64,000 nucleotides of DNA from Rickettsiales bacterium (GTDB lineage: Bacteria; Pseudomonadota; Alphaproteobacteria; Rickettsiales; UBA998), in assembly GCA_024304995.1 (NCBI GenBank), contig JAMWZD010000002.1, positions 647,740 to 711,739 of the forward strand, written 5' to 3'. This document shows, one piece after another, positions 3,366-46,510 of the stretch. Numbering within the stretch: position 1 is the stretch's first letter; every line of letters starts with the position of its first letter. The notes beneath the pieces were generated by a model that did no database searches, had not been told where the DNA came from, and saw nothing but the letters and a program-made list of their open reading frames with translations. The position numbers and the translations under genes are program-made.

Positions 3366-3547
3366 GATATAGATTCAATGTTCCAATCTTAATCTTTTGA
3401 TATAGTTAACCTATTGTATATAATAACTAGTTAAAGAAAAAAGTAAATTTCTATTGCTTTTCAAAAATAATTGTGGATTAAAAGTATGTAATCAAAACGT
3501 TAATTTACGTGATGATTACCCATAAAAATTTTACTACGGAGAGTATT

Positions 3548-30300: not shown

Positions 30301-30639
30301 CATCTGCTGGAACATGCAGATCTAAGCACCCCCATCACCACGTTTCCAGAAAGCGGGGATTGCATGGTGGACACTATCAGCAAAACCAGCTTTCAGGAAA
30401 CCGAAGCAGGGTGCGGCAAAGTGAGCATCAATGAGACGCAATATTTCGGCAATGTGCCGCGCATTGCATGGGAATTTTTCATCGGAGGCTATCAACCCGC
30501 CCAAAAATGGCTCAAAGACCGCAAGGGCAGGGAGCTATCAACTGACGACATCCGCCATTATCAAAAAATTATTGTAGCGTTGATGCGCACACATGAAGTG
30601 ATGCAGGACATTGACAAAGTCTGGAAAGCTGCCCCATAA
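27310..30639 (+). CDS. Single-polypeptide restriction-modification enzyme: Type IIG-like N6-adenine DNA methyltransferase with an N-terminal PD-ExK-like module and a type ISP-like C-terminal specificity region
   Basis: N-terminus 'TEHSYRRAL...GAPDYLLF...VGYIEAKD' is PD...E-x-K-like. SAM motif 'LLDVAAGTGTF'. Catalytic 'GNPPYS'. No helicase/ATPase motifs seen. Confidence 0.75.
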   Translation: MSHTQTYIDALAKEYDSGKATEHSYRRALQDYLEALLEGIHAINEPKPQAWGAPDYLLFKDRNGERIPVGYIEAKDVDKGLNAVEKSSQMKRYLERLDNIILTDYFEFRFFRYQEKVATVRIAETGEFFGDGASVRPLRAEFEKLETLLENFVEFKGQTIKSPMELAKRMANKAKMMREVFFNSLTDTQYRASSLYDQFKAFQQILIHDMDEAQFADVYSQTVAYGLFTARLHDTTLEDFSRAEARDLIPRSNPFLRQLFDYVCGANLEEDLKWIVDELCEVFLATDVNNIMLNFGRKSGREDPVIHFYEDFLKEYDSETRKSRGVWYTPEAVVNFIVRGVDEVLKTHFGLAEGLADTSKVTIEEDIPATDKRRKDGIAKRKVDVHRVQLLDVAAGTGTFTAEAIRQIHARFKGQEGLWNAYVESDLLPRLHGFEILMASYAMCHLKIDLLLRELGYVPQKSSGQKRLGVYLTNALEEHHPETGTLFAQWLAHEANAANRIKKEMPIMVAYGNPPYSVSSQNKGEWIQNLIADYKAGLKEKKLNLDDDYIKFFRYAQHYIERTGKGVVAMITNNSYLDGVTHRQMRKHLLQTFDHIYIIDLHGSAKKKETAPDGSRDVNVFDIQQGVAIAICVKDGSKGAGELATLWHKDMYGARKDKYRRLHSETLAQDGYDALETPKPYYFFVPKDFAAQEEYEKGFGVAELFGVYGSGIKTERDKVCVHHTKQGIENAVFNFLEGHDDKIKKLYSLKKDSRDWTLQGAKNDLLNHKDMNLFTKILYRPFDFRFTYYTGTTRGFMGTPGRKIGNHFREENYGIILSRTVYGSEDWRDIQITNSIVEFGIMATRVGNTAPVFPLYLYPTHDEAQASLEDAAAERGGQETDSALSVSEANRPLRSSGERSRGNHKNRRPNLNERIIRRLAKKLGLTFIPDHENKSNHDCASFTPLDVLDYIYAVLHSPTYRETYKEFLKIDFPRIPYPATAEQFWQLVALGGQVRQLHLLEHADLSTPITTFPESGDCMVDTISKTSFQETEAGCGKVSINETQYFGNVPRIAWEFFIGGYQPAQKWLKDRKGRELSTDDIRHYQKIIVALMRTHEVMQDIDKVWKAAP

Positions 30640-30844
30640 ACCACATACATCATCACCGCACCACAGCAATATGTCTGCACGTTCTTGCGTATATTCTGTG
30701 TGGTTATAAGCCTGGTCTTTAATGGATATTCACCATCAATAAGCTGGCATATTGTTACGTCTGGTTTAATGCGTAACAACACTCACACGAAGAAATATAT
30801 CCTCACTAAGGGTTCTATAAGGGATTTTCTGACAGGAGGGTAAC

Positions 30845-30873
30845 GAGGAACAATGTTATGGTGACCCCTACGG
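30845..30873. repeat. Distal att direct repeat (tRNA-Glu 3'-end duplicate)
   Basis: gaggaacaatgttatggtgacccctacgg here versus gaggaacagttttatggtgacccctacgg at 41782-41810. The exact 18-bp core is ttatggtgacccctacgg. Confidence 0.8.
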
Positions 30874-30997
30874 AATCAAAACTGACTTTTTATGTGTTTG
30901 AAACAAAAAGACTTTGTGTAAATCTACAAAAGAAATGCTACAGTTCCAGCTGCTCATTTTATTCAATGCCTGTGAACTGTAGCGAACGTAATCTGCT

Positions 30998-33900
30998 TTA
31001 AAACTCAAAATCACTATCTGACAATATTCCTCTGTAATCTCCATCCAATGCCAGATCAAAGTTTGAGAAATCATCTCGTAAGTAAGTTTGATCACTGTCA
31101 CTACTATAAGTGACGCGCAAAAGACCTGGCTGCGCTGTTCCTTCTGTGATGCCAGTGAATCCAAAACCTAGAATGAAGATAATGTCACTGCCAGCTTCAA
31201 AGTCAATAATGCGGTCTGGGCTGTCTTTTAATGTGTCTTGTGCGCTATTGAAAATGAAGTTATCTCTTCCTTCATCACCGCGTAACACATCCTGACCATT
31301 GCCGCCGAAAATGTGGTCGTTGCCCGAACCGCCAATGATAGTGTCATTACCTTCTTCTCCCATAAGCAGATCATTGCCGTCGTACCCACTGATATAGTCA
31401 TCACCATTCCAGCCATAAGCACTGTCATCACCTGATCCTGCTAAAATTCGGTCATTGCCATCGTCACCGCCTAATAGGTCATCTCCAGCATGTCCTTCAA
31501 GCAGGTCATTGCCTGTCCAGCCCCAGATCGTATCATTTCCAGCATTGCCATATAATGCATCATTTCCAGCATCACCATAAAGCAAATCATCGCCAGCATT
31601 GCCTTTTAATTTGTCATGACCATCACCACCATGCATTGTATCATCACCATTTGCCCCGAGCAAAGTGTCTTTTCCAGCATCACCATAGGCTATGCCTGAA
31701 TCCCATAACTGGATTTTATCGTTTGATGAGTTTGCTGGTGTTTCATCAACAGTGCTGTCCTCGCCTGAAATTGTGTCTTCGTTATCATTTTCTGCTTCGG
31801 CATTATCACCGCCAGAAACAGTGTCTTCTACGACTTCTTCTTCAATAACTTCATTTACTGTGACAGAAATAGACGCAGTGCTTTCCAGTTCACCATCTGA
31901 AATAGTATAGCTGAATGTATCAACACCGCTGAACCCTTCATTTGGCGTGTAGCTTAGTGTGTTGTCAGAATTGATAATAACAGAGCCATTTGCAGGTATG
32001 CCAACTGCAACAATATTTAGTGAATCGTTATCAACATCACTATCATTTGCAAGTGCATCAATAGTTATAGCGGTACTTTCATTTGTCTCTATTGTATCAT
32101 TACCAGCAACAGGCGCATCATTCACACCATTTATTGTAATGTTTACAGTAGCTGGTTCACTGATGGTTTCTCCATCGGTTATCGTGTATGTGAATGTATC
32201 AGTTGCTGTTTCCCCTGCTTTTAAGGCATTAAATGCGTTATTGGGATTGTAGGTGAATGTTCCATCGCCGTTATCTGTAAGTAAACCCTTTAAGTTTTCG
32301 TTATTGATGGTAGAGATTATAACTAAATTATTAACGTAAGAGTCATTTTCTAATACAGACTTTGTTATAAAAAATTTATCAGCGTCTGTTTTAAATCCTA
32401 TACCATTATCGCTGATCGGCTGTTGTATATTATCAGCTTCAGTATTAGTTCCAGAGTCGTTTGTAATGCTATCATCATCTTTGTTAGAATTATCGTTATC
32501 ATCTATGTTATTGTCTCTGACAGTAATATAAACGAAAGCTGAATCAATTAATTTTCCATCAGATACTTCATAAATGAAAAAATCTTCTCCTGCAAAATCT
32601 CTTGTGGGTATATAAGATATAGTGTTGTTAGTGTTTATTATAGCTTTACCATTACGAGGATTTGATAGGGCATTGATTTTTAGCATGTCATTATCAACAT
32701 CAGAATCATTACCAAGAATATTTAATATTATTTCAGTATTCGAAAATACTGTAATATTATCTTCTATAGCATTAGGACGATCGTTAACACCATTAATTTT
32801 AATTGTAACCGTAGCATCATTACTCGTATATGTTCCATCTGAAATCTGATAAGTAAATTGTTCTGTAACAAATTCACCTTCTTTCAAAGACTTTAAGGTT
32901 TCATCTGGTATGTAATGAAAGATCCCGCTATTGCTTGGTTCAAATAATTCTCCTATTAGACCACTTGCATTATAGCCGCTTATAAAAATTTCATCCTCAT
33001 TTGCATCGCTGTCATTATCTAGTACCGATTTCGTAAATAATATTGCATTTGCATCAACAATATAACCAGTTCCAGCATCGTCAGTTGCTATTGGAGGTAC
33101 GTTCTTTAGGTCCTCTGTTATTGCAAGAATTTCTGCAAAAGTATATTCCTCTCCATCAGCAAATTTAAATTTCTGTATAGCATAGTCAATGTCTGATCTT
33201 AACTGATCATGTATTTTTATTTTTTCGCCACTAGATAATGTTATCAATAAATCAAACCTATTTCCATCAGGTTCTATTGGATCATCAATTGCTTTAAAAG
33301 ATACATTATCTTTTATTATATTATCGGCAAACAATAAAGTTTTATCACTATCACCACCAGTATGTTTCGGATCTATAAACCCCCCATCCATTTCTTTTGC
33401 AAAATAATAAGTGTGAAAATCAAAATCACCTTTGAAAGAAAAATCTTGGTAAAAGCTTTCTGAAACTTCAGTTGATCCACTCCATCCTGCACTTTGACCG
33501 ACTAGTAATGGAGAATCCTTGATTCTTGTATGCAGACTGTAACCACTAATATCTTTAATTTCAAAATCATCTAAATAAGATATTGGAATTACAGAACCAT
33601 AACCTTGCCAAACACTATCTCCTGTAATACTAAGATTTACTCGTTCAAATTTGCCACCTAAAAAATTATTACTGTCTGGTGATTCTTCAAAGACTATAAA
33701 TAAAATTCCATTCTTAGTTGGACCAGAAGAAATTCTTCCATTAACAAGATCAATCGACTCACCATTAACTGTTAACCTTCCAGAGAGATTACCATCATAA
33801 CTACCTTGAGTAGTTCCATAAAGTAAATCATATGAATATTCCAAAGAAGCTGGAACAAAAATAGGATCATTACCATAACCAATATTTATATTTGTAGAAA

Positions 33901-35386
33901 AAATAAAATCAAATTCTTTGGATGACCCATCGTCTTCCATATAAATTCCATAATCGCCGTTGTTCCAACGTTCAAGAGTGATTTGATCATTAGATTTACT
34001 AAATACCAAATCATTTCCAGCTAGTGAAACCTCATAACTACCGATTAGATTTTCATCTTCTTTTAAAGTAATTCCTTTAAATTCTTTTCCATCTAACCAT
34101 AATACATCATCGCCATTCAATTCACTGATAGTATCGTCTCCGTGTCCAACATCAAAAATATATGTGTCATCACCTAAGCCACCATACAAAAAATCATCTC
34201 CTTTTCCGCCTATCAGAATGTCATTGTCATTACCACCAACCAGAGCGTCATTCAATTCTCCCCCTGTAAGTTCATCATTACCATCAAATCCGACGAGGTA
34301 ATTTGAAAAATCCAAATTATTTTCAACTTGTTCTTTTGGTAATATATGAGAGATGTCGAGCTTGTCAGCTAAATCACTCCCCAACACAATTAAATTATCA
34401 ACTTCTTCACCATTTATCGTTGGCAATACAGAAGCCATTGGTACATTTATTCCAAAATCTGTAACTTCTGATATTGCAAGTGTATAATTGTCGTTATTAT
34501 TTTCTAAATCATTTCCCCAAGTACCAGAATATGGAGTTAAAATTTGCTGCACTGGTAGGGTAACTTCAGTCGAACCAAAAATTTTCAGTGGTAATGCGAA
34601 CAATGTGTTGTTAGTGTTTAGAGGATTGATAACCGCTTCTTTGCCGTCTGATAAAGTTCTCAATAGCGCGTCATTTCTAAAAAATTGTGTTTCAATTTGC
34701 GCTGCTGCTAAATCCTCTTTTGATATATCAAGCACATCAATAATTTGCTGGAAGATAGTTTGAAATGGTACAAAATCATATTTTAAATCTTCGAATCCAA
34801 TATCAATGTTTATTTTGTCTGATAAAATTATATCTACATTTTCTTTAATTGCCATATCCAAAAATTGGTTGATATTTAAAATTGGAACATTTTTGCTGAT
34901 TCCATTTTCAAATATTAGTCCAGCTTTGACTGTATTTTCATTTTGTGTTGTCAAAGTTAATGTGTGTTTATCTGTTAAATACTCAAAAGTATCATCTACT
35001 ATTGGTTCGACAAAAGATGAATATGCAACAGACACTGTGCTTGCCACACCTACTGCTATTGCAACGGCAACAATTGTGCTAGCACCAATAGGTGTTAAAG
35101 CTGTTGTTAAAATAGCTGCTGCTATACCAGTTGCGATATCATCAATTATAGCTGTTCCTATTGAAATATTTCCATCACCATATAAAATATCGACAGTTTC
35201 CTCAACAGCTTGTGATATGGGGGAGCTTTTAGCCAAAAATTTAAGTGACGTAGTGCCATTCTTTTTCAACTCATCAAGCTCTAGATATTTATTTAAAGCA
35301 CCTTCTAAAACAGAAAATCCATTGCCAATTTTGCTAATTTCATCATTTGCAAGAAGTGGAGCTTTGTAAAAATGCAGAGATCCCAT
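30998..35386 (-). CDS. Giant RTX / cadherin-like repeat protein (1462 aa), putative type I secretion substrate or adhesin
   Basis: Four cadherin-like modules ('...NDSDVDND...FTYTI(S/T)DG...INGVNDAP'). An early RTX block 'GGNDNDILIGGKGDDFLYGGLGDD'. A C-terminal run of GxxGxD nonapeptides 'GNAGDDLLYGDAGNDALYGNAGNDTIWG...'. The protein ends '...LSDSDFEF'. Visibly AT-rich. Confidence 0.85.
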   Translation of the reverse strand: MGSLHFYKAPLLANDEISKIGNGFSVLEGALNKYLELDELKKNGTTSLKFLAKSSPISQAVEETVDILYGDGNISIGTAIIDDIATGIAAAILTTALTPIGASTIVAVAIAVGVASTVSVAYSSFVEPIVDDTFEYLTDKHTLTLTTQNENTVKAGLIFENGISKNVPILNINQFLDMAIKENVDIILSDKINIDIGFEDLKYDFVPFQTIFQQIIDVLDISKEDLAAAQIETQFFRNDALLRTLSDGKEAVINPLNTNNTLFALPLKIFGSTEVTLPVQQILTPYSGTWGNDLENNNDNYTLAISEVTDFGINVPMASVLPTINGEEVDNLIVLGSDLADKLDISHILPKEQVENNLDFSNYLVGFDGNDELTGGELNDALVGGNDNDILIGGKGDDFLYGGLGDDTYIFDVGHGDDTISELNGDDVLWLDGKEFKGITLKEDENLIGSYEVSLAGNDLVFSKSNDQITLERWNNGDYGIYMEDDGSSKEFDFIFSTNINIGYGNDPIFVPASLEYSYDLLYGTTQGSYDGNLSGRLTVNGESIDLVNGRISSGPTKNGILFIVFEESPDSNNFLGGKFERVNLSITGDSVWQGYGSVIPISYLDDFEIKDISGYSLHTRIKDSPLLVGQSAGWSGSTEVSESFYQDFSFKGDFDFHTYYFAKEMDGGFIDPKHTGGDSDKTLLFADNIIKDNVSFKAIDDPIEPDGNRFDLLITLSSGEKIKIHDQLRSDIDYAIQKFKFADGEEYTFAEILAITEDLKNVPPIATDDAGTGYIVDANAILFTKSVLDNDSDANEDEIFISGYNASGLIGELFEPSNSGIFHYIPDETLKSLKEGEFVTEQFTYQISDGTYTSNDATVTIKINGVNDRPNAIEDNITVFSNTEIILNILGNDSDVDNDMLKINALSNPRNGKAIINTNNTISYIPTRDFAGEDFFIYEVSDGKLIDSAFVYITVRDNNIDDNDNSNKDDDSITNDSGTNTEADNIQQPISDNGIGFKTDADKFFITKSVLENDSYVNNLVIISTINNENLKGLLTDNGDGTFTYNPNNAFNALKAGETATDTFTYTITDGETISEPATVNITINGVNDAPVAGNDTIETNESTAITIDALANDSDVDNDSLNIVAVGIPANGSVIINSDNTLSYTPNEGFSGVDTFSYTISDGELESTASISVTVNEVIEEEVVEDTVSGGDNAEAENDNEDTISGEDSTVDETPANSSNDKIQLWDSGIAYGDAGKDTLLGANGDDTMHGGDGHDKLKGNAGDDLLYGDAGNDALYGNAGNDTIWGWTGNDLLEGHAGDDLLGGDDGNDRILAGSGDDSAYGWNGDDYISGYDGNDLLMGEEGNDTIIGGSGNDHIFGGNGQDVLRGDEGRDNFIFNSAQDTLKDSPDRIIDFEAGSDIIFILGFGFTGITEGTAQPGLLRVTYSSDSDQTYLRDDFSNFDLALDGDYRGILSDSDFEF
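31850..33110 (-). repeat. Array of four cadherin-like (~100 aa) modules within the giant gene; diverged at the DNA level
   Basis: The repeated protein pattern is (P/A)xAxxD ... NDSDxxxD ... (F/Y)xYx(I/V)SDG ... (I/V)xVxxVN(D/E). Confidence 0.5.
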
Positions 35387-35618
35387 ATATCACCCAAGTT
35401 TCTTTTATTAATTTTTGTATAATTGTTTAGTCTGAAATACAATTAAAATAAATACATAATGTCCTAGTTTGATAATTTATTTTTTGCTTAAGGTTTTACT
35501 CCAGTATGAATTCTTTCTAAGAATATTTACAGACTAGCCATAGCATTGAAGAATAACTTTAGTTCGCAGCCGTAATTACAGACCTGCTGCTTTCAACGCT
35601 GCAAATTTGTTAAAATCT

Positions 35619-35879
35619 CTAGTCTTCTGCTTCTATGCCCTGCCTTACGGCAAGAATAACTTTGTCTGCATCAATTTCTAATGCGTCACATATATTGATA
35701 AATTCAATAACATCTAATCTGCGTTCTCCGCCTTCATATTTAGCAACAAATGACTGTGGTTTACTGATTCGAGTTGCCAGTTGCTGTTGTGTCAAACCCG
35801 CATTGCGCCTTGCTTGTATCAAGTGGCTTTGCAGTAACTGTGACTGTTTTGAATGTATGGTTTTCTTCAAAATACGCAA
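35619..35879 (-). CDS. XRE-family helix-turn-helix transcriptional regulator (86 aa)
   Basis: 'IQARRNAGLTQQQLATRISKPQSFVAKYEGGERRLDVIEF' is a typical Cro/C1-type HTH. Confidence 0.8.
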   Translation of the reverse strand: MRILKKTIHSKQSQLLQSHLIQARRNAGLTQQQLATRISKPQSFVAKYEGGERRLDVIEFINICDALEIDADKVILAVRQGIEAED

Positions 35880-35910
35880 CTTATGGATTGAATTTGTGCG
35901 TATTGATGGT

Positions 35911-35946
35911 TAATCCTGTAATCGGATTATCCCAAAATAGGATTAA
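35911..35946. promoter_or_regulatory. Operator-like repeats in the XRE / GIY-YIG divergent intergenic region
   Basis: taatcc-N7-ggatta palindrome (35911-35929), with further ggatt copies at 35885-35889 and 35940-35944. Confidence 0.3.
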
Positions 35947-35948
35947 AT

Positions 35949-36668
35949 ATGTTCACATCAGAAATATGCGAAGCATTGCAATATTATGTATATCGTTTGA
36001 TTGATCCGCGTAATGGTGAAACATTTTATGTTGCTAAAGGTAAAAATAACCGTGTGTTTGAACATGCAAAAGGTGAGGCGGATGCTGTTGAAGTAGCAAT
36101 AAGCCAAAAAATTGAACGCATACGTGACATACGCATTTCAGGTTTTGATGTTGGTCATGTGATTCACCGTCATGGGCTAAATAAAGATACTGCTTATGAA
36201 GTGGAGGCCGCTTTGATTGGTGTCTATCCTGCAACCACCAATATTATGTCTGGTCATTATTCTGGTGAACGTGGTGTGATGCACTCAAGACAAATCATTG
36301 AGCAATATCAGGCAGACGAAATTATATTTTATCATGACGTAATGCTTATCAATATTGGCGTGTCAGCATTGCAGCATTCAGCTATTTATGAAGCGGTACG
36401 CTATGCATGGAAAATAGACGTTACACGTGCGCGTAAAGCGCAATATATACTGGCGGTGTGTAGCGGTTTGGTTGTCGGTGTGTTCGTACCAGAAATATGG
36501 CTGGAAGCGACCACAGAACATTTTCCTGACCGCGAATCGAAACAGGGCAGGTGGGGTTTCATTGGCTGTGATGCACCAAGCGATATTACAAAAACCTATC
36601 TGAGAAAACGTGTGCCATCATCTATGCGAAAGAAAGGCTCTGCCAATCCTATTCGCTATAGTTATTAA
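35949..36668 (+). CDS. GIY-YIG nuclease-family protein (239 aa)
   Basis: N-terminus 'YYVYRLIDPRNGETFYVAKGKNNRVFEH' has the GIY...YIG spacing with downstream R and E. Confidence 0.7.
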   Translation: MFTSEICEALQYYVYRLIDPRNGETFYVAKGKNNRVFEHAKGEADAVEVAISQKIERIRDIRISGFDVGHVIHRHGLNKDTAYEVEAALIGVYPATTNIMSGHYSGERGVMHSRQIIEQYQADEIIFYHDVMLINIGVSALQHSAIYEAVRYAWKIDVTRARKAQYILAVCSGLVVGVFVPEIWLEATTEHFPDRESKQGRWGFIGCDAPSDITKTYLRKRVPSSMRKKGSANPIRYSY

Positions 36669-37135
36669 AAATCAAGATAATCCGAATCAGTCAAAATAGC
36701 TTTGCGTTGTTGCTCAATGAGTGACGCCATCGTTTTTGCTTCATTTGGTGTTAGTTGCCCTGTGCTAACAGATTGCAATAAATTATCTAATGCTGGCACT
36801 ATATCATGAATCTCGCTGATATTGTCCAAATCAAACAAAATTGGTGTGTCTTTGCGTGGCGGATAAATACGCTCCATCACCAGTTTAATTGCATTCATAT
36901 CACCAGCTTTGGCGCGTTCGACCACTTTGCGTGTAATGGTTTCAGCTTCTTCATCTATCAGTGTCATCATTGCCAGTGTTGTTTTGTTTCGACTGCCTTT
37001 CGGTCTGCCGTTTGGATTGCCTGATGTTCCTTTCTTAAATGGCTTCCCACGCTGTTTTTTCGCTGTATTAACAGTAAAACTATCATCAAAATCCATGTGT
37101 GTATCCTTGATATATGTGCTTCGGACAATGGACAA
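36665..37135 (-). CDS. DUF5681-like phage/island protein (156 aa)
   Basis: 'KGTSGNPNGRPKGSRNK' motif, recalled from DUF5681-type proteins. Confidence 0.5.
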   Translation of the reverse strand: MSIVRSTYIKDTHMDFDDSFTVNTAKKQRGKPFKKGTSGNPNGRPKGSRNKTTLAMMTLIDEEAETITRKVVERAKAGDMNAIKLVMERIYPPRKDTPILFDLDNISEIHDIVPALDNLLQSVSTGQLTPNEAKTMASLIEQQRKAILTDSDYLDF

Positions 37136-37182
37136 TTAGGACGATAAACGCTGTCCATATTGTCCTGTGTCCGTAACCATTA

Positions 37183-39402
37183 TTATATATCGTGTATTAT
37201 CGGATTTACATCGTAATTACTGGCTTTGCTCTTTGATGGTATTGTACGTATCCAGCCTGTTTCTTCAAGACACGATAATGCAGCGTCACGGCGTTTAGTA
37301 TCGCGATTCAAGACATCTTTTGAGATATTGCGACCATTAATGGCCTTCATCTTGTGTTTTCGTATATATTGAGAAACTAAATACGCATCATGTTCATGCT
37401 GTGGAACGGATGCCATCTGCAAACAATGTTCTGCCATTGGATAAAAATACTCTTCAACTATTTTTACCGCATTATTCACATATTCGGCGTTAATAACATC
37501 TGGTTCGTTTATATCTGTTTGCGACCAGTTTAGATAATGTAGCACAAGACTTAAGCGTGCTGTGATGCCTCGTAATTTACCTATATGCGATACCAATATG
37601 CCTGAATGCTTATTCTCATAAACTTGAAGTCGTGACGCAAAGTCTTCTATAATTTTGCGACCAGCAGGACATAGATAAATAATTTTAGGTTCTGGTGAAT
37701 TGCTGCTGTCAATTTCCATATCTAAATTTTGTAAACATTCATAAATGCGCTCAATAAGTTTATCATCAGGTGCTACATTTGGTTCTTTAATATGTTGAGG
37801 AGTTCCTGACACATATAGAAAGCAAGATGATAGACCATCATCAGGTTGTTGTATCAGTAATTGATTAAGTTTATCTGGCTGAATGCTTCCAATGATGGAA
37901 AGTAAAACAGATGGAACGTAAATAGTATTTTCATATTTTACACGGTCAATGGTTGTTGGTCTGCCACCAAAGCTTTCAAGATAAAATGGTCGATCATTCT
38001 TACCGCTTCGTTATAAATTAGCCAGCAAGCCAGCGAGTTCATCTCTTGAGTATATTAAACCTCTAGGATTATCCGCTAATATCAGCGCAGTTTTTTCAAC
38101 TGTACTGTCATTTACAAGTAGTCTTTTAACTTTTGGCTTAGGTAATATTTCTTGCTCATCAATTTGCCATTGCTGATTAACTGCTTTTTGCATTTCCTGC
38201 TGTTGATTATACGCTTTTAATTCAGTTTCATATTGCTTTTGATAGTCTGCTTCTATTCTATGTATAAACGGAAAGACTGCATCTAATGCAGGTGACTTAT
38301 TGCATGATGGTAAACCTACTAACATAAACCATAGAGCTGTGGGTTCTTGCCACTTATGCCATACTTCTATACGGCGTGAATTACCGATAATGCCAGCAGT
38401 GGCAGATAGTAGTGCAGCAAATATATAATCTGGTGGCGCACATTTACATAATGATGCATCTTTAATAAATTTTGCTAGTGTGTCACCTAGTAAATCATAT
38501 GGACACTTAGGTAAATTCGGTTTTTGCTTTTGAACCACAGATAAATCTGGATTATTCCAATTATCGTTATGAATGTATGGATTTTTCTTACCACCTTCAA
38601 AACCGCTATGTATGGTGCTAGTAATCTCTTTTTGTTCCAAGCCTATTTCTAGAGCTGTTTTGGTTAAAATTTCTCTTGCGTATTTTTCATCAAGACCATT
38701 AGATATATGCTGACCTAGTGCAAACGCAGATTTATTGAGTTGATGATTTCGAGTGCCCTTTGCAGCATATTGCAAGTTCAATATTTCTTTTTGAATGATA
38801 TTATCAAATTGCGCTTGAGGAAGTGCTTCAGCTAATTTTTTTTGCATGGACGCAGGTTTTTCAGAAATAATATCTAACAACCACTTTGGTGCATGAGCAA
38901 TTTCTATGTCGTTGATAGGATAAACCCAACGGTAAGATGTGCCATTCGGCTGTATAGATGGCGGTGCAACTACATATCCGCCATCACCACGAATATCAAT
39001 ATTAGGTTCACGCATTCTATCAATAACAATACCTGCTTGTGTTTTAATAATACGATTATCAGGATAACGAAAATACAAATGAATCCCGTTTCCAGTTCGT
39101 GCCGAAAGTGTTCTTGGTAGCTTATTATAACGCTGCATAAGCGCTCTAATACGTTTGTCACCATCCTCACCATCAATATCAAGTACAAAAATATCTGATA
39201 TTTTTCCTGTTACGATAGCTATATTATTTTGTTGTGAATCCCACTTAATACATCGTTCAATAGTTGCATGGTTTTCTTGATATTGTTGCCATGATATATT
39301 TGGTCTTTTGCTACCATAAGAAAGTGGGAAAACGCTAAAACCACATGATAATAGATTCTGAAAATTATTTATTTTCACCTCCAATAGCAGGAAATGCATC
39401 AA
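37183..39402 (-). pseudogene. Bifunctional PrimPol + DUF3987 (helicase-like) replication protein interrupted by a single in-frame TAA
   Basis: The ORFs 39402-38011 and 37812-37183 are in the same frame. The 198 nt between them (38010-37813) is open and encodes 'RSGKNDRPFYLESFGGRPTTIDRVKYENTIYVPSVLLSIIGSIQPDKLNQLL...'. The only stop is TAA at 38013-38011. Confidence 0.7.
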
Positions 39403-39565
39403 TAAATTCTGTTACAGATTCAGCAGTGATTAGCGTTTTTGCACCAAACTTTTTGGCAACCAATTTGCCGTCATTAATTGCTTTATAAATGCTGGTGCGT
39501 CCAAGCGATATGCGCTCGCTAACTTCTTTTATAGTCAAAAGATTTTTATTCATCTCATTCTCCAT
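39365..39565 (-). CDS. AlpA/excisionase-family DNA-binding protein (66 aa)
   Basis: 'LLTIKEVSERISLGRTSIYKAINDGKL' is an AlpA/MerR-like HTH. Confidence 0.75.
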   Translation of the reverse strand: MENEMNKNLLTIKEVSERISLGRTSIYKAINDGKLVAKKFGAKTLITAESVTEFIDAFPAIGGENK

Positions 39566-39740
39566 TATGATAATTTATGAACACTTGCGTGATCCTGAGA
39601 ATGAGTTATCTGCGTATTTTCTGTCACATAAAAGCGGAGTAATTTAGTGACAGAATTTTTCTATGTGCTCAGCTAATATGGAATGGGTTTAATCAGTATT
39701 GTTTGAATTATATTTTAATTGGAACTTTTCCCAAAGATCG

Positions 39741-40217
39741 TCATGTTTTTTCCTTTGTAATACCATTGTAACAATACTGGCTTTGAAAAATTCGATACAT
39801 TTTTTGTCTCTTTTGGTATGATTCACGATAAATTTTTCTAACCGTATTTTCTGGCTTTGTATAAGAACCATCAGCTTTTGGTTTTGGCTGTAAATTATGA
39901 TTTTTTACTACCCATTCTGTAGCTTCTTTAGCGGTAGTTTTTTTATCTAAAATTTCACCATCACTGTCAATATTTGAAAACATTTTGATGCATTCAAAAT
40001 CATTGCCTATTCTGAATATTTGCTCATCAGAAAATTCACGAGGACGACCTTTTGGCTTATGTGTTAAACCTATCATTCTATGAATCAATTCTTTGTAACC
40101 TCTCGCATTTGTAATATTTAGTTCAAACCGTTTTTGACTATATTCATCACATAATACATTCAACCGCTCCTGCGCTTCTTTCATTTCTTGCTCTGTCAAA
40201 TCTTCAATTTCACCCAT
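39741..40217 (-). CDS. Hypothetical island protein (158 aa)
   Basis: ORF only. Its start overlaps the reconstructed integrase 3' end. Confidence 0.4.
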   Translation of the reverse strand: MGEIEDLTEQEMKEAQERLNVLCDEYSQKRFELNITNARGYKELIHRMIGLTHKPKGRPREFSDEQIFRIGNDFECIKMFSNIDSDGEILDKKTTAKEATEWVVKNHNLQPKPKADGSYTKPENTVRKIYRESYQKRQKMYRIFQSQYCYNGITKEKT

Positions 40218-41413
40218 CAATTTTCATCCCTAATTTTTGCATATGGTCAGCCCACCACTGCATTATCTCTGTGCGCTCTGGTAGGTATGCACGATTATAT
40301 ACGGCGCGTACCTGATCGCGCTCTGTGTGTGCTAACTGCCGCTCTATGGCATCGCTGTTAAAGCCATGTTCGTTTAATATGGTGTCTGGCTGTGGTGCGG
40401 AAGCCGTGACCAGTGGTGATGCCTTTATAGCCCATTAAGTCAATCGCACGAAGAAACGTATTCTCGCTAATGCATTTACGTGGATTTTGAAAACTTGGTA
40501 ACACGTAGCCACTATAGCTGTTTCTTGTCACCTCGTGAATCTTTTTGAACAATGCAATGCTTTGCGCTGATAATGGCACAAGCAGTTCTTTTCGCATCTT
40601 CATCCGTTCAGCAGGTATGCGCCATAGTTTTTGTTTAAAGTCTATCTCAGACCATTGTGCCTGACGTAATTCAGATGTGCGAACAAAGGTTAGAATCAAT
40701 AACTGAAATCCCCACTTGGTAATTGGATTGCCGTTATAGGTGCTGTCATAGCAATTTAGTTTACGCAAGAAATCTGGTAATTGCTGTTCTTCAAGATAGG
40801 CGCGATGTGTGGTGGCAGACGGTTTCAATGCACCTTGCAAATCAGTCGTGATATTGCGTTCTGCTTTACCGCATGCAATCGCATAACGATATATTTGCGC
40901 TGTAGTTTGCAACATACGCTTTGCCATTTCATGCCTGCCTTGCTGTTCTATCGGTTTCAGCGTATGCAGCAATTCAGGCGGCGTGATGTTTACAATAGGC
41001 TTGTTGCAAAGAATAGGGAAGAGGTGCATTTCCAGCCGTTTCATAATGTTATCTGCATGTCGTGGCTGCCATGTATGACGTTTTTGTTCGTGCCATTCAC
41101 GCGCTATCGCTTCAAACGTATTCACATGCTGCATTTCAAAATCCAGCTTTTCCTGCCTTTTGGCTTGCACTGGATCAATATTATGCATCACCAGCTTTTT
41201 CTTCTCCAGCTTCAATTCACGCGCTTCTTTTAACGATACTAATGGATATTCACCAAGTGACACCTGTTTGCGTTTATTATTCAGACTATACGCCAGATAC
41301 CAGCGTTTACTGCCAGATGGATTGACCGTTAGCGATAAATTATCACCATCATTCAGGCGATACATTTTATCTTTCGGTTGTGCATTTTTAATCTGTATGT
41401 TTGTCAGCTTCAT
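40210..41413 (-). pseudogene. int: P4-type tyrosine integrase with a +1 frameshift before the catalytic C-terminus
   Basis: N-terminal DUF4102-like 'KLTNIQIKNAQPKDKMYRLNDGDNLSLTV'. The ORF stops after 'GHGFRTTARHHIKRTWL'. The next frame continues 'EHGFNSDAIERQLAHTERDQVRAVYNRAYLPERTEIMQWWADHM', which holds the His and Tyr of the active site. Removing one C near 40384 restores 'TARTILNEHGF'. Confidence 0.8.
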
Positions 41414-41781
41414 TTGTTACCTCTTTACTGTTTTGCATGTGGACATCCACGAATAGCCATGAATGACTATGAATAAATAACAAGAAAAAACAGCATGTTA
41501 CACAGTTTTTCTTAGCAAAAATTAGCGAAATAGTAAAGCGGTAAAGTGATCGTCCATATTGTCCATCGTCCACGGTAGGTATGGATATAAAAAACAGGAA
41601 CACCAACTAAGCCAGCAAACCAAGCAAAACCTAGTGTAGCAAAACCCATGACTTGCTACAGCTTGCTGTAATTTTTGCTACCAAAAAACGTGGCTGTAGG
41701 CAAATAAACGCGAACAGAAACGAATAGAAAAGCAGTTTAAGTTATTGACGAATAAACACAAAACGAACAGATACGAATGTT

Positions 41782-41810
41782 GAGGAACAGTTTTATGGTG
41801 ACCCCTACGG
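41782..41810. repeat. Proximal att direct repeat: 15 nt of the tRNA-Glu 3' end plus 14 nt downstream
   Basis: See the partner at 30845-30873. Confidence 0.8.
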
Positions 41811-41870
41811 GATTCGAACCCGTGTTGCCGCCGTGAAAGGGCGATGTCCTAACCACTAGACGAAGGGGCC
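41796..41870 (-). tRNA. tRNA-Glu (anticodon UUC)
   Basis: The reverse complement GGCCCCTTCGTCTAGTGGTTAGGACATCGCCCTTTCACGGCGGCAACACGGGTTCGAATCCCGTAGGGGTCACCA folds as a cloverleaf, has a CTTTCAC anticodon loop and encoded CCA, and is close to E. coli tRNA-Glu. Confidence 0.9.
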
Positions 41871-43927: not shown

Positions 43928-43942
43928 ATAAATTTATCAGTA

Positions 43943-44236
43943 TCAGGATGGCTTCGCGCCACCTTCCTTGTCTTTCTGGGCGGCAGCATTGCCAAGTGCG
44001 TAAACACACAGATCTTCAAAAGAGACATTATTTTCCTGCGAGATCTTAAAGAGTTTTTCAAAACTATCCATCACATCCTGCGGAATAGTGCCACCACGTT
44101 CACTGGAAAGCCAGTTGGACTGGTTGAGCAACGGATGTTTTTTGGGGTGCGGTTCGCCAACATACACATGAAACGGATGCTTCTTTCCGCCAAAATCACA
44201 AGGTATTGTAAAACGCTTCATTGTCACTTTCTCCAA
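43943..44236 (-). CDS. Small conserved-looking hypothetical protein (97 aa)
   Basis: The ORF begins 'MKRFTIPCDFGGKKHPFHVYVGEPHPKKHPL'. I have a vague recollection of similar small proteins in intracellular bacteria, but cannot name the family reliably. Confidence 0.55.
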   Translation of the reverse strand: MEKVTMKRFTIPCDFGGKKHPFHVYVGEPHPKKHPLLNQSNWLSSERGGTIPQDVMDSFEKLFKISQENNVSFEDLCVYALGNAAAQKDKEGGAKPS

Positions 44237-44384
44237 TAATCATAGTATAACTGTTTAATATTACCATTATATGACAGTCATTTCTATCATATAAACTTTA
44301 ACTGACGATAAACCTCTATATTGTAAAGAATTTGTCATAAAAATTTCGTGTTATGCAACATTGCAATGTGTTAATCTGAAACAA

Positions 44385-46304: not shown

Positions 46305-46510
46305 TGCCAGATTATGCTTATAAAGAATATGAAGAGCAGATTTTTCGTATATTGTTAGGAGCGTCTGTGATTGAGCATCAGGTGGAAATATACCGCAAAG
46401 GCAAAGGGTTTGTACCATTCGAAAACGCAACATTGGTGTTGATGCGTGGTTATGATGTTTCGGAAAAGCAGGCAAAACAGCGCATCGCCAATCAGATTAT
46501 TCGGCGTTAG
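46304..46510 (+). CDS. Small ORF (68 aa) translationally coupled to the upstream orphan
   Basis: TGATG stop/start junction at 46302-46306; no motif recognised. Confidence 0.45.
   Translation: MPDYAYKEYEEQIFRILLGASVIEHQVEIYRKGKGFVPFENATLVLMRGYDVSEKQAKQRIANQIIRR

What the first reader, a model, noticed from the sequence alone, without database searches (positions are those of the whole stretch)
30845..41810. Island of about 11 kb at tRNA-Glu, delimited by a 29-bp direct repeat
Seen in sequence: gaggaacaatgttatggtgacccctacgg (30845-30873) repeats gaggaacagttttatggtgacccctacgg (41782-41810) with 27 of 29 matches. The exact 18-bp core contains the last 15 nt of tRNA-Glu, including CCA.
Between the repeats, reading away from the tRNA, lie:
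- a P4-type integrase
- a 158-aa hypothetical protein
- an AlpA-like excisionase
- PrimPol/DUF3987
- a DUF5681-like protein
- a GIY-YIG protein
- an XRE regulator
- an AT-rich 1462-aa RTX gene
This is the classic tRNA-int-...-att architecture of integrative elements or P4-like satellites. No capsid or transfer genes are present.
Both the integrase and the primase are disrupted, so the element looks immobilised while its large cargo gene remains intact.
Basis: partly seen in the sequence, partly recalled or inferred. Interest (0 to 1): 0.6.

Follow-up and report, generated by a model that had tools for sequence, protein, structure and literature searches.

The report
Decayed integrative island at tRNA-Glu
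This is a real but now immobilised 10.9-kb mobile island inserted in a tRNA-Glu gene of a Rickettsiales-like bacterium; it carries an anti-phage nuclease and a giant adhesin-like gene and is an ordinary, if previously uncatalogued, relative of known integrase-AlpA-primase islands.

Summary
tRNA-Glu(UUC) lies at 41796-41870 (-). Its last 15 nt sit in an exact 18-nt core found only twice in the window, inside a 32-nt repeat (29/32) at 30845-30876 and 41782-41813.

The integrase has one extra base after HGFR, which puts the catalytic Tyr out of frame. The primase-helicase has one in-frame TAA where an intact homologue has GAA.

Intact homologous elements sit at tRNA-Glu(UUC) in other Rickettsiales-like genomes. 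They share the core order int, small gene, AlpA, primase, DUF5681, followed by variable cargo. One is bounded by the same kind of tRNA-fragment repeat.

A copy in a related host gives integrase dS 0.43 and dN/dS 0.06. Host genes between the same two genomes are saturated at synonymous sites, so the family spread horizontally not long ago.

New points:
- The GIY-YIG gene is a full-length CMoRE/PD-T4-3 homologue, a type IV restriction enzyme.
- A remnant of a second, older integrase abuts the distal repeat, so the locus is a tandem array.

The island fails membership of P4-like, PICI type A/B and PICMI. Its transfer route is unknown. It is a new member of a known kind, of modest interest.

The parts
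41796..41870 (-). tRNA-Glu(UUC), the integration target (attB lies in its 3' end)
   Evidence: ARAGORN. Rfam tRNA, 63 bits. The same tRNA flanks the integrase in L089, L092, L175 and L174.
41782..41813 (.). tRNA-proximal copy of the att repeat (attL). It holds 18 nt of the tRNA 3' end plus 14 nt of element-derived sequence.
41414..41795 (-). Non-coding arm between the tRNA and int. It carries repeated (T/A)GTTCGC-like motifs and a CCTACAGCCAC block conserved across family members. These are candidate arm-type integrase sites and the int promoter (inferred).
   Evidence: Alignment A3 of six loci. A 10-nt tandem CGAACAGAAA at 41711-41730. Motif counts alone are not significant.
40210..41413 (-). 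P4-type tyrosine integrase pseudogene. One extra nucleotide near 40385, just after HGFR, puts the C-terminal 57 residues (with H362 and catalytic Y372) out of frame. The annotated ORF stops at 40358.
   Evidence: Pfam Arm-DNA-bind_3, Phage_int_M and Phage_integrase. Sequence. Removing one base gives a 400-aa protein that aligns end to end, with only two small internal gaps, with eight intact homologues of 53-66% identity. The HMM matches in two frames.
39741..40217 (-). 158-aa conserved gene of unknown function. Its ATG overlaps the restored integrase stop by 8 nt (ATGGGTGA). By position it resembles the int-overlapping gene needed for PICMI excision.
   Evidence: Sequence. 37% identical over 100 aa to the 179-aa gene after int in L089. 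No Pfam, PHROG or PADLOC hit. PICMI iolg is described in PMC10803314.
39365..39565 (-). AlpA-like HTH_17 protein (excisionase or transcriptional activator type)
   Evidence: PF12728, E 1.8e-8. phrog_66 excisionase/regulator. 58% identical to the L089 counterpart.
37183..39402 (-). Prim-Pol + DUF3987 primase-helicase pseudogene. It is one 739-codon frame interrupted by a single TAA at 38011-38013. The intact L089 homologue has Glu in the conserved LLANL-E-K motif, so GAA mutated to TAA.
   Evidence: 52% identity over 739 aa to the intact 744-aa L089 protein.
36665..37096 (-). DUF5681 protein (143 aa), the last conserved core gene of the family. Function unknown.
   Evidence: PF18932, E 1.1e-16. 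60% identical to L089. It follows the primase in L089, L090 and L175. Model pLDDT 78, four helices, no significant fold match.
35949..36668 (+). [quoted passage not shown] Intact.
   Evidence: PADLOC PD-T4-3, E 1.6e-99, profile positions 6-254 of 256. PDB 9U75 and 9U7U, E 3.8e-72 and 3.8e-68, over residues 2-238, with the three Tyr of GIYxY-YIG, the Arg and the Glu aligned. Function as reported in PMC12923530.
35619..35879 (-). Cargo or regulator: XRE-family HTH protein. It is divergent from CMoRE and lies upstream of the RTX gene.
   Evidence: PF01381, E 3.9e-9. PHROG repressor families.
30998..35386 (-). Cargo: 1462-aa RTX / bacterial cadherin / Big_9 repeat protein, a putative type I-secreted adhesin. 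Intact ORF, GC 35%, GC3 0.23.
   Evidence: Pfam Big_9, Cadherin_4/5, HemolysinCabind and HCBP_related. Its GC3 matches the island core genes, not the host. The C-terminus aligns with the serralysin-type C-terminus of the chromosomal RTX protein.
30845..30876 (.). Distal copy of the att repeat: the displaced tRNA 3' fragment plus 14 nt
30646..30844 (-). Remnant of the C-terminal ~90 codons of a second, older integrase of the same family. It has stops and an internal deletion and starts at the base next to the repeat.
   Evidence: DNA alignment of 30844-30780 to int 40502-40441: 68% over 65 nt, score 41, against shuffles of 21.9 +/- 2.8 (maximum 32). All eight family integrases hit the same ~60-100-nt stretch starting at 30711 or 30708 with their residues ~371-399; individual E-values are weak, 0.035-1.4. 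HMM i-E 0.062.
27310..30639 (+). Neighbour outside the repeats: Type IIG restriction-modification enzyme. It may be cargo of the older decayed island (inferred only).
   Evidence: PADLOC REase_MTase_IIG, E = 0. Pfam Type_ISP_C, N6_Mtase and Eco57I. Host-like GC3 of 0.47.

Best explanation
The segment 30845-41813 is one copy of a family of small site-specific integrative islands. The family targets the 3' end of tRNA-Glu(UUC) in Rickettsiales-like Alphaproteobacteria.

**How it works (inferred from the well-studied P4/PICI/PICMI type)**
- The P4-type tyrosine integrase recombines an element-borne attP with the tRNA 3' end. The attP carries at least 18 nt identical to that end.
- Integration regenerates an intact tRNA next to int and leaves the displaced tRNA fragment at the far end.
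- The small gene that follows or overlaps int, together with the AlpA-type HTH protein, controls excision.
- The Prim-Pol/DUF3987 primase-helicase replicates the excised circle.
- DUF5681 is a fifth conserved core gene of unknown role.
- The element has no packaging, capsid or conjugation genes. It must therefore hitch a ride on a phage, a gene-transfer-agent-like particle, a conjugative element or a vesicle. Which one is unknown.
- Downstream of the core lies a swappable cargo bay.

**Cargo in this copy**
- An intact CMoRE/PD-T4-3 type IV restriction nuclease, which in E. coli acts against phages with hydroxymethylated or glucosylated cytosine.
- An XRE regulator.
- A 1462-aa RTX/cadherin adhesin-like protein that would need a host type I secretion system.

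**State of this copy**
- It is dead as a mobile element.
- A 1-nt insertion separates the integrase's catalytic tyrosine from the rest of the enzyme.
- A GAA-to-TAA nonsense mutation truncates the primase-helicase.
- Each lesion is a single event in an otherwise conserved ORF, so inactivation is recent and the cargo is being kept.
- The island landed next to an older, far more decayed element of the same family, so the tRNA-Glu locus is an accreting tandem array.
For: **Shown**
- tRNA, repeat and its significance.
- Domain content.
- Single-base repair gives a 400-aa integrase with all 120 family-invariant columns, including HGFR, H362 and Y372.
- The primase is one frame with one TAA at a conserved Glu.
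- Both lesions recur in two further assemblies.
- L089 (GCA_030429625.1) has tRNA-Glu(UUC), int 404 aa, a 179-aa gene, HTH_17, an intact 744-aa primase and DUF5681, then different cargo (M78 peptidase, type I HsdR). Protein identities to the window are 65, 37, 58, 52 and 60%.
- L175 has tRNA-Glu(UUC), int, a gene overlapping int by 4 nt, HTH_17, Prim-Pol plus DUF5906 helicase and DUF5681, then other cargo.
- L092 has tRNA-Glu(UUC), int, HTH_17, a SacI-type RM system and an inverse-autotransporter beta-domain gene. A second tRNA 3' fragment lies 9.5 kb away (2 of 20 mismatches).
- L174 has tRNA-Glu(UUC), an int fragment and DUF5681, another decayed copy.
- Horizontal spread: the copy in metagenome ERZ27264536 (L085 plus L088) is 90.7% identical in DNA over int and its upstream arm. 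Integrase dS is 0.43 and dN/dS is 0.064. Flanking chromosomal genes of the two hosts are 64-84% identical with pS 0.66-0.82.
- Island-wide low GC3, including the RTX gene.
- CMoRE identity (PMC12923530).
- Older integrase remnant.

**Inferred**
- Roles of AlpA, the 158-aa gene and the primase, by analogy with P4/PICI/PICMI (PMC10803314, PMC10085698).
- Arm-type sites.
Against: - No empty attB and no excised circle were observed. The only close relative also has an element at this tRNA, and the 55% relative lacks the tRNA at that spot.
- The distal repeat abuts another integrase remnant. It therefore marks a junction between two elements, not a clean element-chromosome boundary.
- That L085 and L088 come from one genome is inferred, not shown. 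About 108 nt between the two contigs is unassembled.
- The primase family was not found in IMG/VR viral contigs. It has only relatives below 35% identity, almost all covering about half the query, in deposited phages and plasmids. There is thus no evidence for a helper or for particle association.
- The two Logan runs may be the same culture or bin as the window. They exclude assembly error better than they exclude read-level artefacts.
- The host is known only as an unnamed Rickettsiales-like genome. The best TyrRS match is 65%.
Confidence: 0.82

Rival explanations
1. The family is a minimalist phage satellite (PICMI- or PICI-like), or a hitcher on gene-transfer-agent particles. A helper infection would trigger AlpA-dependent excision and replication. 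The element would then be packaged into helper capsids, with DUF5681 or the int-adjacent gene as the hijacking factor. The window copy would be a dead satellite.
For: - The int-AlpA-primase core, with no morphogenesis genes, matches the PICMI definition except for the att site.
- A gene overlapping int, as in PICMI iolg, is present here (8 nt) and in L175 (4 nt).
- The cargo is anti-phage defence, as in P4-like satellites (PMC13586616 abstract).
- DUF5681 occurs in PHROG families and was detected in a Salmonella phage virion proteome.
- A head-tail gene cluster lies about 4 kb upstream of the tRNA-Glu in L175.
Against: - No terS, capsid, portal or any other hijacking gene is recognisable.
- The DUF5681 model shows no similarity to small terminases or to any solved fold. 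The best Foldseek E is 0.24, and the best profile hit against PDB sequences is a designed helical repeat.
- The primase family is absent from 2.9 million IMG/VR contigs.
- SatelliteFinder treats int+AlpA+primase alone as ambiguous 'Type C'.
- The L175 head-tail cluster may be mere neighbourhood.
Confidence: 0.3
2. The element is still functional. On this view the frameshift and the stop are sequencing or assembly artefacts, or are bypassed by +1 ribosomal frameshifting and stop-codon readthrough.
For: - Each gene has only one lesion, and everything else is conserved.
- Integrase dN/dS is 0.064.
- The related copy L088 also carries one extra base within 5 nt of the same spot, which could hint at a tolerated or programmed shift.
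Against: - The same lesions appear in three assemblies.
- The insertion is not in a homopolymer, and the stop is a base substitution.
- No known slippery or shift-prone motif is evident around GCC-AGA-CAC (inspection).
- All eight intact homologues are single ORFs.
- L088 has further unambiguous damage: ATG changed to ACG, two 1-nt deletions and loss of the 3' end. Decay is therefore the pattern.
Confidence: 0.05
3. The repeat is not an integration scar. On this view it is a chance or duplication-derived match, and the gene set is a vertically inherited chromosomal region.
For: - No empty site was seen.
- A related host also has element sequence at this tRNA.
Against: - Chance expectation for the core is 0.01.
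- The repeat is exactly the tRNA 3' end next to a tyrosine integrase.
- The same arrangement, with its own repeat, is seen in L092.
- Core genes are shared but cargo differs between genomes, and the chromosomal neighbours of the tRNA differ.
- Island GC3 is far below the host's.
- Island dS is far below host dS.
Confidence: 0.03

Closest known systems
PICMI (phage-inducible chromosomal minimalist islands of Vibrionaceae; PMC10803314)
   Same: - Small island whose core is integrase + AlpA-type HTH + primase-helicase of the DUF3987 or DUF5906 type.
- No capsid-remodelling or packaging genes.
[quoted passage not shown]
- Accessory genes follow the core.
   Different: - PICMIs integrate in fis, and Fis is a mandatory marker. 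This family integrates in tRNA-Glu(UUC).
- The hosts are Rickettsiales-like Alphaproteobacteria, not Vibrionaceae.
- The primase has an N-terminal AEP Prim-Pol domain.
- DUF5681 is an extra conserved core gene.
- Phage induction and packaging have not been shown.
P4-like satellites (SatelliteFinder model; PMC10085698)
   Same: - P4-type integrase with an arm-binding domain next to a tRNA.
- AlpA, a primase and a size of about 10 kb.
- Defence genes as cargo.
   Different: - No psu-delta-sid operon or epsilon was detected.
- The primase is Prim-Pol + DUF3987. From my own knowledge, P4 alpha is a different primase-helicase; this was not compared here.
- 93% of P4-like elements are in Enterobacteriaceae.
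PICI / 'Type C' PICI-like clusters (PMC10085698)
   Same: int, AlpA and pri-rep functions in the same order beside an att site.
   Different: Only 3 of 5 core components are present. No terS, ppi or capsid-morphogenesis gene. The authors themselves regard such 3-component clusters as ambiguous.
Cargo-carrying tycheposons (bioRxiv 10.1101/2020.12.28.424599)
   Same: - Inward-facing tyrosine recombinase beside a tRNA, with partial-tRNA repeats.
- A small replication module next to int and a cargo module.
- Tandem arrays with degraded integrases and partial tRNAs building up an island.
   Different: - Tycheposons are defined by their own integrase lineage and shared hallmark profiles in marine cyanobacteria and other plankton.
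- This integrase is a P4-type (Arm-DNA-bind_3) enzyme.
- Lineage membership was not tested.
CMoRE / PD-T4-3 (PMC12923530; PDB 9U75, 9U7U) - for the cargo gene only
   Same: - Single-gene system with end-to-end homology.
- The three tyrosines of GIYxY-YIG and the catalytic Arg and Glu align.
   Different: - The acidic 'lid' loop is 2 residues shorter and lacks four consecutive acidic residues.
- The Gly of YIG is Ala.
- The host is a Rickettsiales-like bacterium.
- Activity is untested.

Membership tests
tRNA-targeting integrative genomic island (generic) | Tyrosine integrase adjacent to a tRNA gene whose 3' end is duplicated at the far end of the segment | tested here: met
tRNA-targeting integrative genomic island (generic) | Presence/absence polymorphism (empty attB in relatives) | tested here: inconclusive
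   No empty site was available. Substitute evidence: island dS of 0.43 against saturated host genes, and different cargo at the same tRNA in other genomes.
tRNA-targeting integrative genomic island (generic) | Atypical base composition | tested here: met
   36.7% GC against 46.3%. GC3 0.22-0.35 against 0.36-0.55.
P4-like satellite (7 core components) | Integrase and AlpA | tested here: met
   Pfam and PHROG hits. NCBIfam PRK09692 integrase domain, below cut-off.
P4-like satellite (7 core components) | psu-delta-sid operon and epsilon | tested here: not met
   No Pfam, PHROG or NCBIfam hit of that kind on any island ORF. The only unassigned ORF is the 158-aa gene.
P4-like satellite (7 core components) | P4 alpha-type primase | not tested
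   The domains here are Prim-Pol (AEP) + DUF3987. No direct comparison with P4 alpha was run.
PICI (type A/B: at least 4 of 5 core components) | int, alpA/regulator and pri-rep, plus packaging or capsid-morphogenesis components | tested here: not met
   Only int, AlpA and primase are present. No terS or capsid hit. This equals the ambiguous 'Type C' of PMC10085698.
PICMI | int + AlpA (PF05930/PF12728) + primase (DUF3987 or DUF5906) | tested here: met
   The relative L175 has DUF5906. Definition.
PICMI | Integration next to or in fis, with Fis as a mandatory marker | tested here: not met
   The site is tRNA-Glu(UUC) in all 5 loci examined.
PICMI | Gene overlapping int (iolg) | tested here: met
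   8-nt overlap (ATGGGTGA) with the restored int stop. 4-nt overlap in L175. Homology to the PICMI iolg was not tested.
PICMI | Induction by, and packaging in, a virulent helper phage | not testable with these tools
   No helper is known. The primase family is absent from IMG/VR.
Tycheposon | Inward-facing site-specific integrase at a tRNA, adjacent small replication module, cargo module | tested here: met
   Definition.
Tycheposon | Integrase belongs to the tycheposon-specific tyrosine-recombinase lineage and shares the hallmark profiles | not tested
   No tycheposon sequences were available. The integrase here has the P4-type Arm-DNA-bind_3 architecture.
CMoRE / PD-T4-3 | Full-length homology: N-terminal GIY-YIG domain plus C-terminal modification-sensing domain, single gene | tested here: met
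   PADLOC E 1.6e-99, profile positions 6-254 of 256. PDB 9U75 E 3.8e-72, query residues 2-238.
CMoRE / PD-T4-3 | GIYxY-YIG motif with three tyrosines | tested here: met
   The query's YVYRL...FYVAKG aligns with YVYRL...FYVGKG of 9U75. Motif described.
CMoRE / PD-T4-3 | Negatively charged auto-inhibitory loop | tested here: inconclusive
   The loop is present but 2 residues shorter: GEADAVE against GEVAAADDDD.
CMoRE / PD-T4-3 | Cleavage of 5hmC/5ghmC DNA and protection from T-even-like phages | not testable with these tools
   Needs an experiment.
RTX type I secretion substrate | Glycine-rich nonapeptide Ca-binding repeats near the C-terminus | tested here: met
   HemolysinCabind E 5.9e-34, 5 stretches, the best at residues 1343-1375.
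RTX type I secretion substrate | Cognate ABC transporter, membrane-fusion protein and TolC genes nearby | tested here: not met
   None in the island, and none among the larger window ORFs scanned. The rest of the genome was not available.

The most novel reading that the evidence does not exclude
The conserved five-gene core (P4-type int, int-adjacent small gene, AlpA, Prim-Pol/DUF3987 or DUF5906 primase-helicase, DUF5681) at tRNA-Glu(UUC) defines a previously undescribed family of minimalist phage satellites or gene-transfer-agent hitchers in Rickettsiales-like Alphaproteobacteria. DUF5681 or the int-adjacent gene would be the factor that hijacks helper particles. The family would shuttle restriction and defence systems and surface adhesins between bacteria of this clade. 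From general knowledge, many members of this clade are host-associated with few known routes of gene exchange; the lifestyle of this host was not established here.
Probability: 0.2. Interest if true: 0.6.

Novelty: new member of a known kind. Interest (0 to 1): 0.35.

Why it matters
The island itself is an ordinary kind of object: a tRNA-integrated island with a P4-type integrase, AlpA and a primase, now decaying.

Its modest value lies in four points:
1. It documents a coherent element family specific to tRNA-Glu in poorly known Rickettsiales-like bacteria. The family has swappable cargo of restriction and defence systems and adhesins. It also shows a clear signal of recent horizontal spread, with island dS of 0.43 against saturated host genes.
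2. It places a CMoRE-type anti-hmC-phage nuclease in this clade. That implies pressure from phages with modified DNA.
3. It gives a clean snapshot of domestication. The mobility genes were each killed by a single mutation, the cargo is intact, and an older wreck sits next door.
4. The int-adjacent gene and DUF5681 are conserved unknowns. They could be tested for roles in excision or hitch-hiking.

Tried and rejected
**Empty-site search**
- A genome-contig scan with the tRNA-adjacent 653-aa protein found nothing.
- The second scan, with TyrRS, gave only distant relatives of 65% identity or less. It was useful for taxonomy only.
- Homologues of the 653-aa protein exist in just two other assemblies. 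One also has the element, and the other lacks the tRNA there.

**Other collections**
- E. coli genomes gave no match.
- A metagenome scan with the primase gave one 29%-identical locus, which was not pursued.
- An IMG/VR scan with the intact L089 primase gave nothing. A scan with the integrase alignment gave only generic prophage integrases of 49% identity or less.
- Deposited phages and plasmids hold only primase relatives below 35% identity, nearly all partial.

**DUF5681 as a small terminase or hijacking protein**
- A profile search of PDB sequences and a Foldseek search with a pLDDT-78 model gave nothing meaningful.
- The only paper mentioning the domain is uninformative.
- The idea is neither supported nor excluded.

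**Arm-type sites**
- CTGTAGCA occurs once near each island end, and GTAGCAAAA clusters in the int-proximal arm. Counts are at chance level.
- Only the cross-family conservation is worth keeping.

**Other negative results**
- Promoter and terminator scans are at shuffle level.
- Rfam finds only the tRNA.
- No third tRNA fragment marks the outer end of the older remnant.
- The island RTX gene is not a copy of the chromosomal RTX gene at 3509-5896. They are only about 30% similar in shared repeat domains, and the GC3 differs.
- The organism's name could not be recovered.

**Shared ancestral frameshift between the window and L088**
- The gapped alignment favours two independent 1-nt insertions 5 nt apart. 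Each restores the peptide TTASTILNE, which matches the family consensus. The low dN/dS agrees.
- A shared event cannot be strictly excluded.

Full report
**1. The observation**

ARAGORN finds tRNA-Glu(UUC) at 41796-41870 on the minus strand, and Rfam agrees. The repeat finder extends them to 32 nt, 30845-30876 versus 41782-41813, with 29 of 32 matches. The exact 18-nt core TTATGGTGACCCCTACGG occurs only at these two places in 64 kb, even with three mismatches allowed. Shuffled sequence gives 0.01 expected. The core contains the last 15 nt of the tRNA, including CCA, plus 3 nt downstream. Similarity stops at both ends of the 32 nt. A scan of the whole window with the tRNA 3' half found no third copy.

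**2. Gene content**

- P4-type integrase (Arm-DNA-bind_3, Phage_int_M, Phage_integrase).
- A 158-aa ORF with no family.
- An HTH_17/AlpA-type protein.
- Prim-Pol + DUF3987.
- DUF5681.
- A GIY-YIG protein on the plus strand.
- An XRE HTH protein.
- A 1462-aa protein with Big_9 and cadherin-like domains and RTX repeats.

No ORF matches a capsid, portal, terminase, tail, relaxase or coupling protein in Pfam or PHROGs.

The island is 36.7% GC against 46.3% for the rest of the window. Island genes have GC3 of 0.22-0.35 (integrase 0.42), while chromosomal genes have 0.36-0.55. The RTX gene (GC3 0.23) groups with the island core genes, not with the host.

**3. The two disruptions**

*Integrase.* The ORF ends at 40358, after profile position 139 of 172. 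The rest of the protein continues in the next frame to a TGA at 40210-40212. That part reads TILNEHGFNSDAIERQLAH...RAVYNRAYLPER...WWADH. Removing one base gives a 400-aa protein. It aligns end to end, with only two small internal gaps, with eight intact homologues of 53-66% identity. It keeps all 120 invariant columns, including H336-G-F-R339, H362 and Y372. A family HMM matches positions 1-349 in one frame and 348-404 in the next.

*Primase-helicase.* This is one 739-codon frame with a single TAA at 38011-38013. In the intact 744-aa homologue of L089 the aligned residue is Glu, in the conserved motif DELAGLLANL-E-K..GNDRP. The lesion is therefore GAA to TAA.

Both lesions recur in contigs assembled from SRR19707681 and SRR19707674. 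The insertion is not in a homopolymer, and the stop is a substitution.

**4. Host**

The flanks are ordinary chromosome: thrS, glpX, hom, tyrS, anmK, rluD-like, a sigma factor, ppdK and glyS. The best TyrRS matches among 185,579 species representatives are MAGs labelled Rickettsiales or Alphaproteobacteria, at 65% identity or less. Several neighbouring proteins have no Pfam family and almost no homologues. The host is thus an unnamed, sparsely sampled Rickettsiales-like alphaproteobacterium. I could not recover its name.

**5. Relatives of the element**

The repaired integrase has many full-length homologues of about 400 aa, up to 65% identical. Those that carry a source name are labelled Rickettsiales or Alphaproteobacteria MAGs. 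Their contexts are decisive:
- **L089** (GCA_030429625.1) has tRNA-Glu(UUC), then, 388 nt on, int (404 aa), a 179-aa gene, HTH_17, a 69-aa gene, an intact Prim-Pol/DUF3987 (744 aa) and DUF5681. Unrelated cargo follows: a zinc-ribbon protein, an M78 peptidase, HTH_17 and type I HsdR. Identities to the window proteins are 65% (int), 37% (158-aa gene), 58% (AlpA), 52% over the full length (primase) and 60% (DUF5681).
- **L175** has tRNA-Glu(UUC), int, a gene overlapping int by 4 nt, HTH_17, Prim-Pol plus a PriCT_2/DUF5906 helicase and DUF5681. Other cargo follows, including a DNA methylase.
- **L092** (GCA_031426355.1) has tRNA-Glu(UUC), int and HTH_17, then a SacI-type restriction enzyme with a C5 methylase and an inverse-autotransporter beta-domain gene. 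A second copy of the tRNA 3' end lies 9.5 kb downstream, with 2 of 20 mismatches. This is the same repeat-bounded architecture.
- **L174** has tRNA-Glu(UUC) followed by an integrase fragment and DUF5681, another wreck.
- **L091** shows two such integrases in tandem with AbiEi and other genes.

The window element therefore belongs to a family with a conserved core, a fixed target (five of five loci at tRNA-Glu(UUC)) and a variable cargo bay. The cargo is rich in restriction and defence systems and surface proteins.

The non-coding arm between the tRNA and int also keeps conserved blocks across the family. These include repeated (T/A)GTTCGC-like motifs and CCTACAGCCAC. I read them as candidate arm-type integrase sites. 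Simple motif counts in the window are at chance level.

**6. Evidence for mobility without an empty site**

I could not find an unoccupied attB. The closest host relative is metagenome ERZ27264536, whose 653-aa flank protein is 77% identical. It has the same tRNA-Glu followed by 125 nt homologous to the island's int-proximal arm. The contig ends there.

A 1.5-kb contig from the same assembly (L088) is 90.7% identical in DNA to window 41562-40366, that is, int and its upstream arm. Between these two integrase copies, dS is 0.43, dN is 0.028 and dN/dS is 0.064 over 341 codons. By contrast, chromosomal genes flanking the tRNA in the two hosts are 64-84% identical in DNA, with pS of 0.66-0.82. Three of four are saturated, and the highly conserved sigma factor gives dS of 1.6.

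The elements are therefore much younger than the split of their hosts, which means horizontal spread. The integrase was under purifying selection for most of that time. That L085 and L088 are adjacent in one genome is inferred, because about 108 nt between them is unassembled.

L088 is itself a pseudogene. Its start codon is ATG changed to ACG, it has two 1-nt deletions, and homology is lost after codon 349. It also carries one extra A, 5 nt upstream of the window's extra base. The gapped alignment restores the family-consensus peptide TTASTILNE in both copies, so I read these as independent insertions. The coincidence of position is unexplained.

**7. Cargo**

*GIY-YIG protein.* It is a full-length homologue of PD-T4-3. 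The PADLOC match has E 1.6e-99 over profile positions 6-254 of 256. It also matches the solved CMoRE structures 9U75 and 9U7U, with E 3.8e-72 and 3.8e-68 over residues 2-238. CMoRE is a single-gene type IV restriction endonuclease that degrades DNA containing 5hmC or glucosyl-5hmC and protects E. coli from T-even phages (PMC12923530). The three tyrosines of its GIYxY-YIG motif and the catalytic Arg and Glu align. The acidic lid loop is two residues shorter and lacks four consecutive acidic residues.

*XRE gene.* It is divergent from CMoRE and sits upstream of the RTX gene.

*RTX protein.* It has two blocks of nonapeptide repeats and four cadherin/Big_9 modules. Its C-terminus aligns with the serralysin-type C-terminus of a second RTX protein encoded in the chromosome at 3509-5896. 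No secretion genes are in the island. Function as a type I-secreted adhesin is inferred.

**8. The distal boundary is a junction between two elements**

Directly left of the distal repeat, from 30844 down to about 30646 on the minus strand, lies the wreck of another integrase of the same family.
- The DNA at 30844-30780 aligns to int 40502-40441 at 68% over 65 nt. The score is 41, against 21.9 +/- 2.8 (maximum 32) for shuffles and a maximum of 33 for 109 other window segments.
- The translation reads SLPSCQKIPYRTLSEDIFLRVS...QAYNHTEYTQERADILLWCGDDV. The family has VFPSFQNPRKTISENTFLRAI...AAYNHAQYLPERxEMMQWWADYL.
- All eight family integrases hit the same ~60-100-nt stretch starting at 30711 or 30708 with their residues ~371-399, and the HMM gives i-E 0.062.

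This also explains why the repeat extends 14 nt beyond the tRNA end: both copies are followed by element-type arm sequence. The locus is a tandem array in which a newer island pushed an older, now almost erased one away from the tRNA. The same process is described for tycheposon islands.

The Type IIG restriction-modification gene at 27310-30639 converges on this remnant and may be what is left of the older island's cargo. Its PADLOC match has E = 0. Its GC3 is host-like (0.47), and no outer repeat survives, so this is only a suggestion.

**9. Mechanism and rivals**

The best-supported account is a site-specific integrative, self-replicating but non-self-transmissible island, now inactivated by two point lesions and retained for its cargo (confidence 0.82).

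How intact members move between cells is open. The satellite reading is attractive:
- The core equals the PICMI definition apart from the att site.
- There is an int-overlapping gene like the PICMI iolg, which is essential for excision.
- The cargo is anti-phage.

However, I found no hijacking gene. DUF5681 shows no terminase-like or any other known fold. The primase family is absent from IMG/VR and has no close relative in deposited phages or plasmids. I give the satellite or hitcher reading 0.3. I give 'still functional through artefact or recoding' 0.05, and 'not an integration scar' 0.03.

**10. Comparison with known families**

- The element fails P4-like membership, because psu-delta-sid and epsilon are absent.
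- It fails PICI type A/B, with only three of five components. SatelliteFinder's authors call that class ambiguous.
- It fails PICMI, because it does not integrate at fis and is not in Vibrionaceae.
- It matches the architectural definition of cargo-carrying tycheposons, but their lineage-specific integrase criterion was not tested.

It works like these elements without belonging to a named one.

**11. Verdict**

It is a new member of a well-known kind of element, from an under-sampled clade. A specialist would not be surprised. Interest is 0.35.

Noticed in passing
window 30646-30844 (-): Remnant of a second, older P4-type integrase of the same family. It starts at the base next to the distal att repeat, so the tRNA-Glu locus is a tandem array of a newer and an older island.
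   Followed up: yes
window 27310-30639 (+): Full-length Type IIG restriction-modification enzyme (PADLOC E = 0), just outside the repeat and converging on the integrase remnant. It may be cargo of the older island, but its GC3 is host-like and no outer boundary was found.
   Followed up: partly
window 3509-5896 (+): A second, chromosomal RTX protein (795 aa) with NIDO, Big_9, cadherin-like, RTX and serralysin-type C-terminal domains. It is only about 30% similar to the island RTX protein. It suggests the host has a type I secretion system somewhere.
   Followed up: partly
L088 1-1194 versus window 41562-40366: The related integrase copy has its own 1-nt insertion only 5 nt from the window's insertion, plus other lesions. 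Two independent frameshifts in the same 6-nt stretch are an unexplained coincidence. Homology ends abruptly at window 40366 and unrelated AT-rich DNA follows.
   Followed up: partly
L175 191-5648: A phage or gene-transfer-agent-like head-tail cluster (portal, S78 protease, capsid, head-completion and tail proteins) lies about 4 kb upstream of the tRNA-Glu that carries an intact family member. It may be coincidence or a possible helper.
   Followed up: no
L091 5158-13272: Three tyrosine recombinase genes lie within 6 kb. Two are P4-type integrases of this family in tandem, each followed directly by a small unknown gene. AlpA, DUF1376 and AbiEi genes follow. This looks like another accreting array. 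No tRNA lies within the fetched locus.
   Followed up: no
L174 6527-10453: In a 2.05-Mb Rickettsiales MAG, tRNA-Glu(UUC) is followed by an integrase fragment and an intact DUF5681 gene, with no primase. This is another decayed copy of the family.
   Followed up: partly
window 41640-41795 and the equivalent arms of L085, L089, L092, L175 and L174: The non-coding arm downstream of the tRNA keeps conserved blocks across elements whose integrases are only 60-65% identical. The blocks are repeated (T/A)GTTCGC-like motifs, CCTACAGCCAC and GGTAGCA..CAGCA. GTTCGC and CTACAG motifs also occur near the distal end (30965-30985).
   Followed up: partly
window 41966-47883: The chromosomal genes next to the tRNA (653, 647 and 458 aa) have no Pfam domain and almost no homologues in 5.8 billion proteins. 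They appear to be lineage-specific proteins of this clade.
   Followed up: no
L173 10001-12026: In a Tardiphaga genome, DUF5681 sits near a gene with a Phage_P4_cII domain and no tRNA. DUF5681 is therefore not restricted to the tRNA-Glu island family.
   Followed up: no
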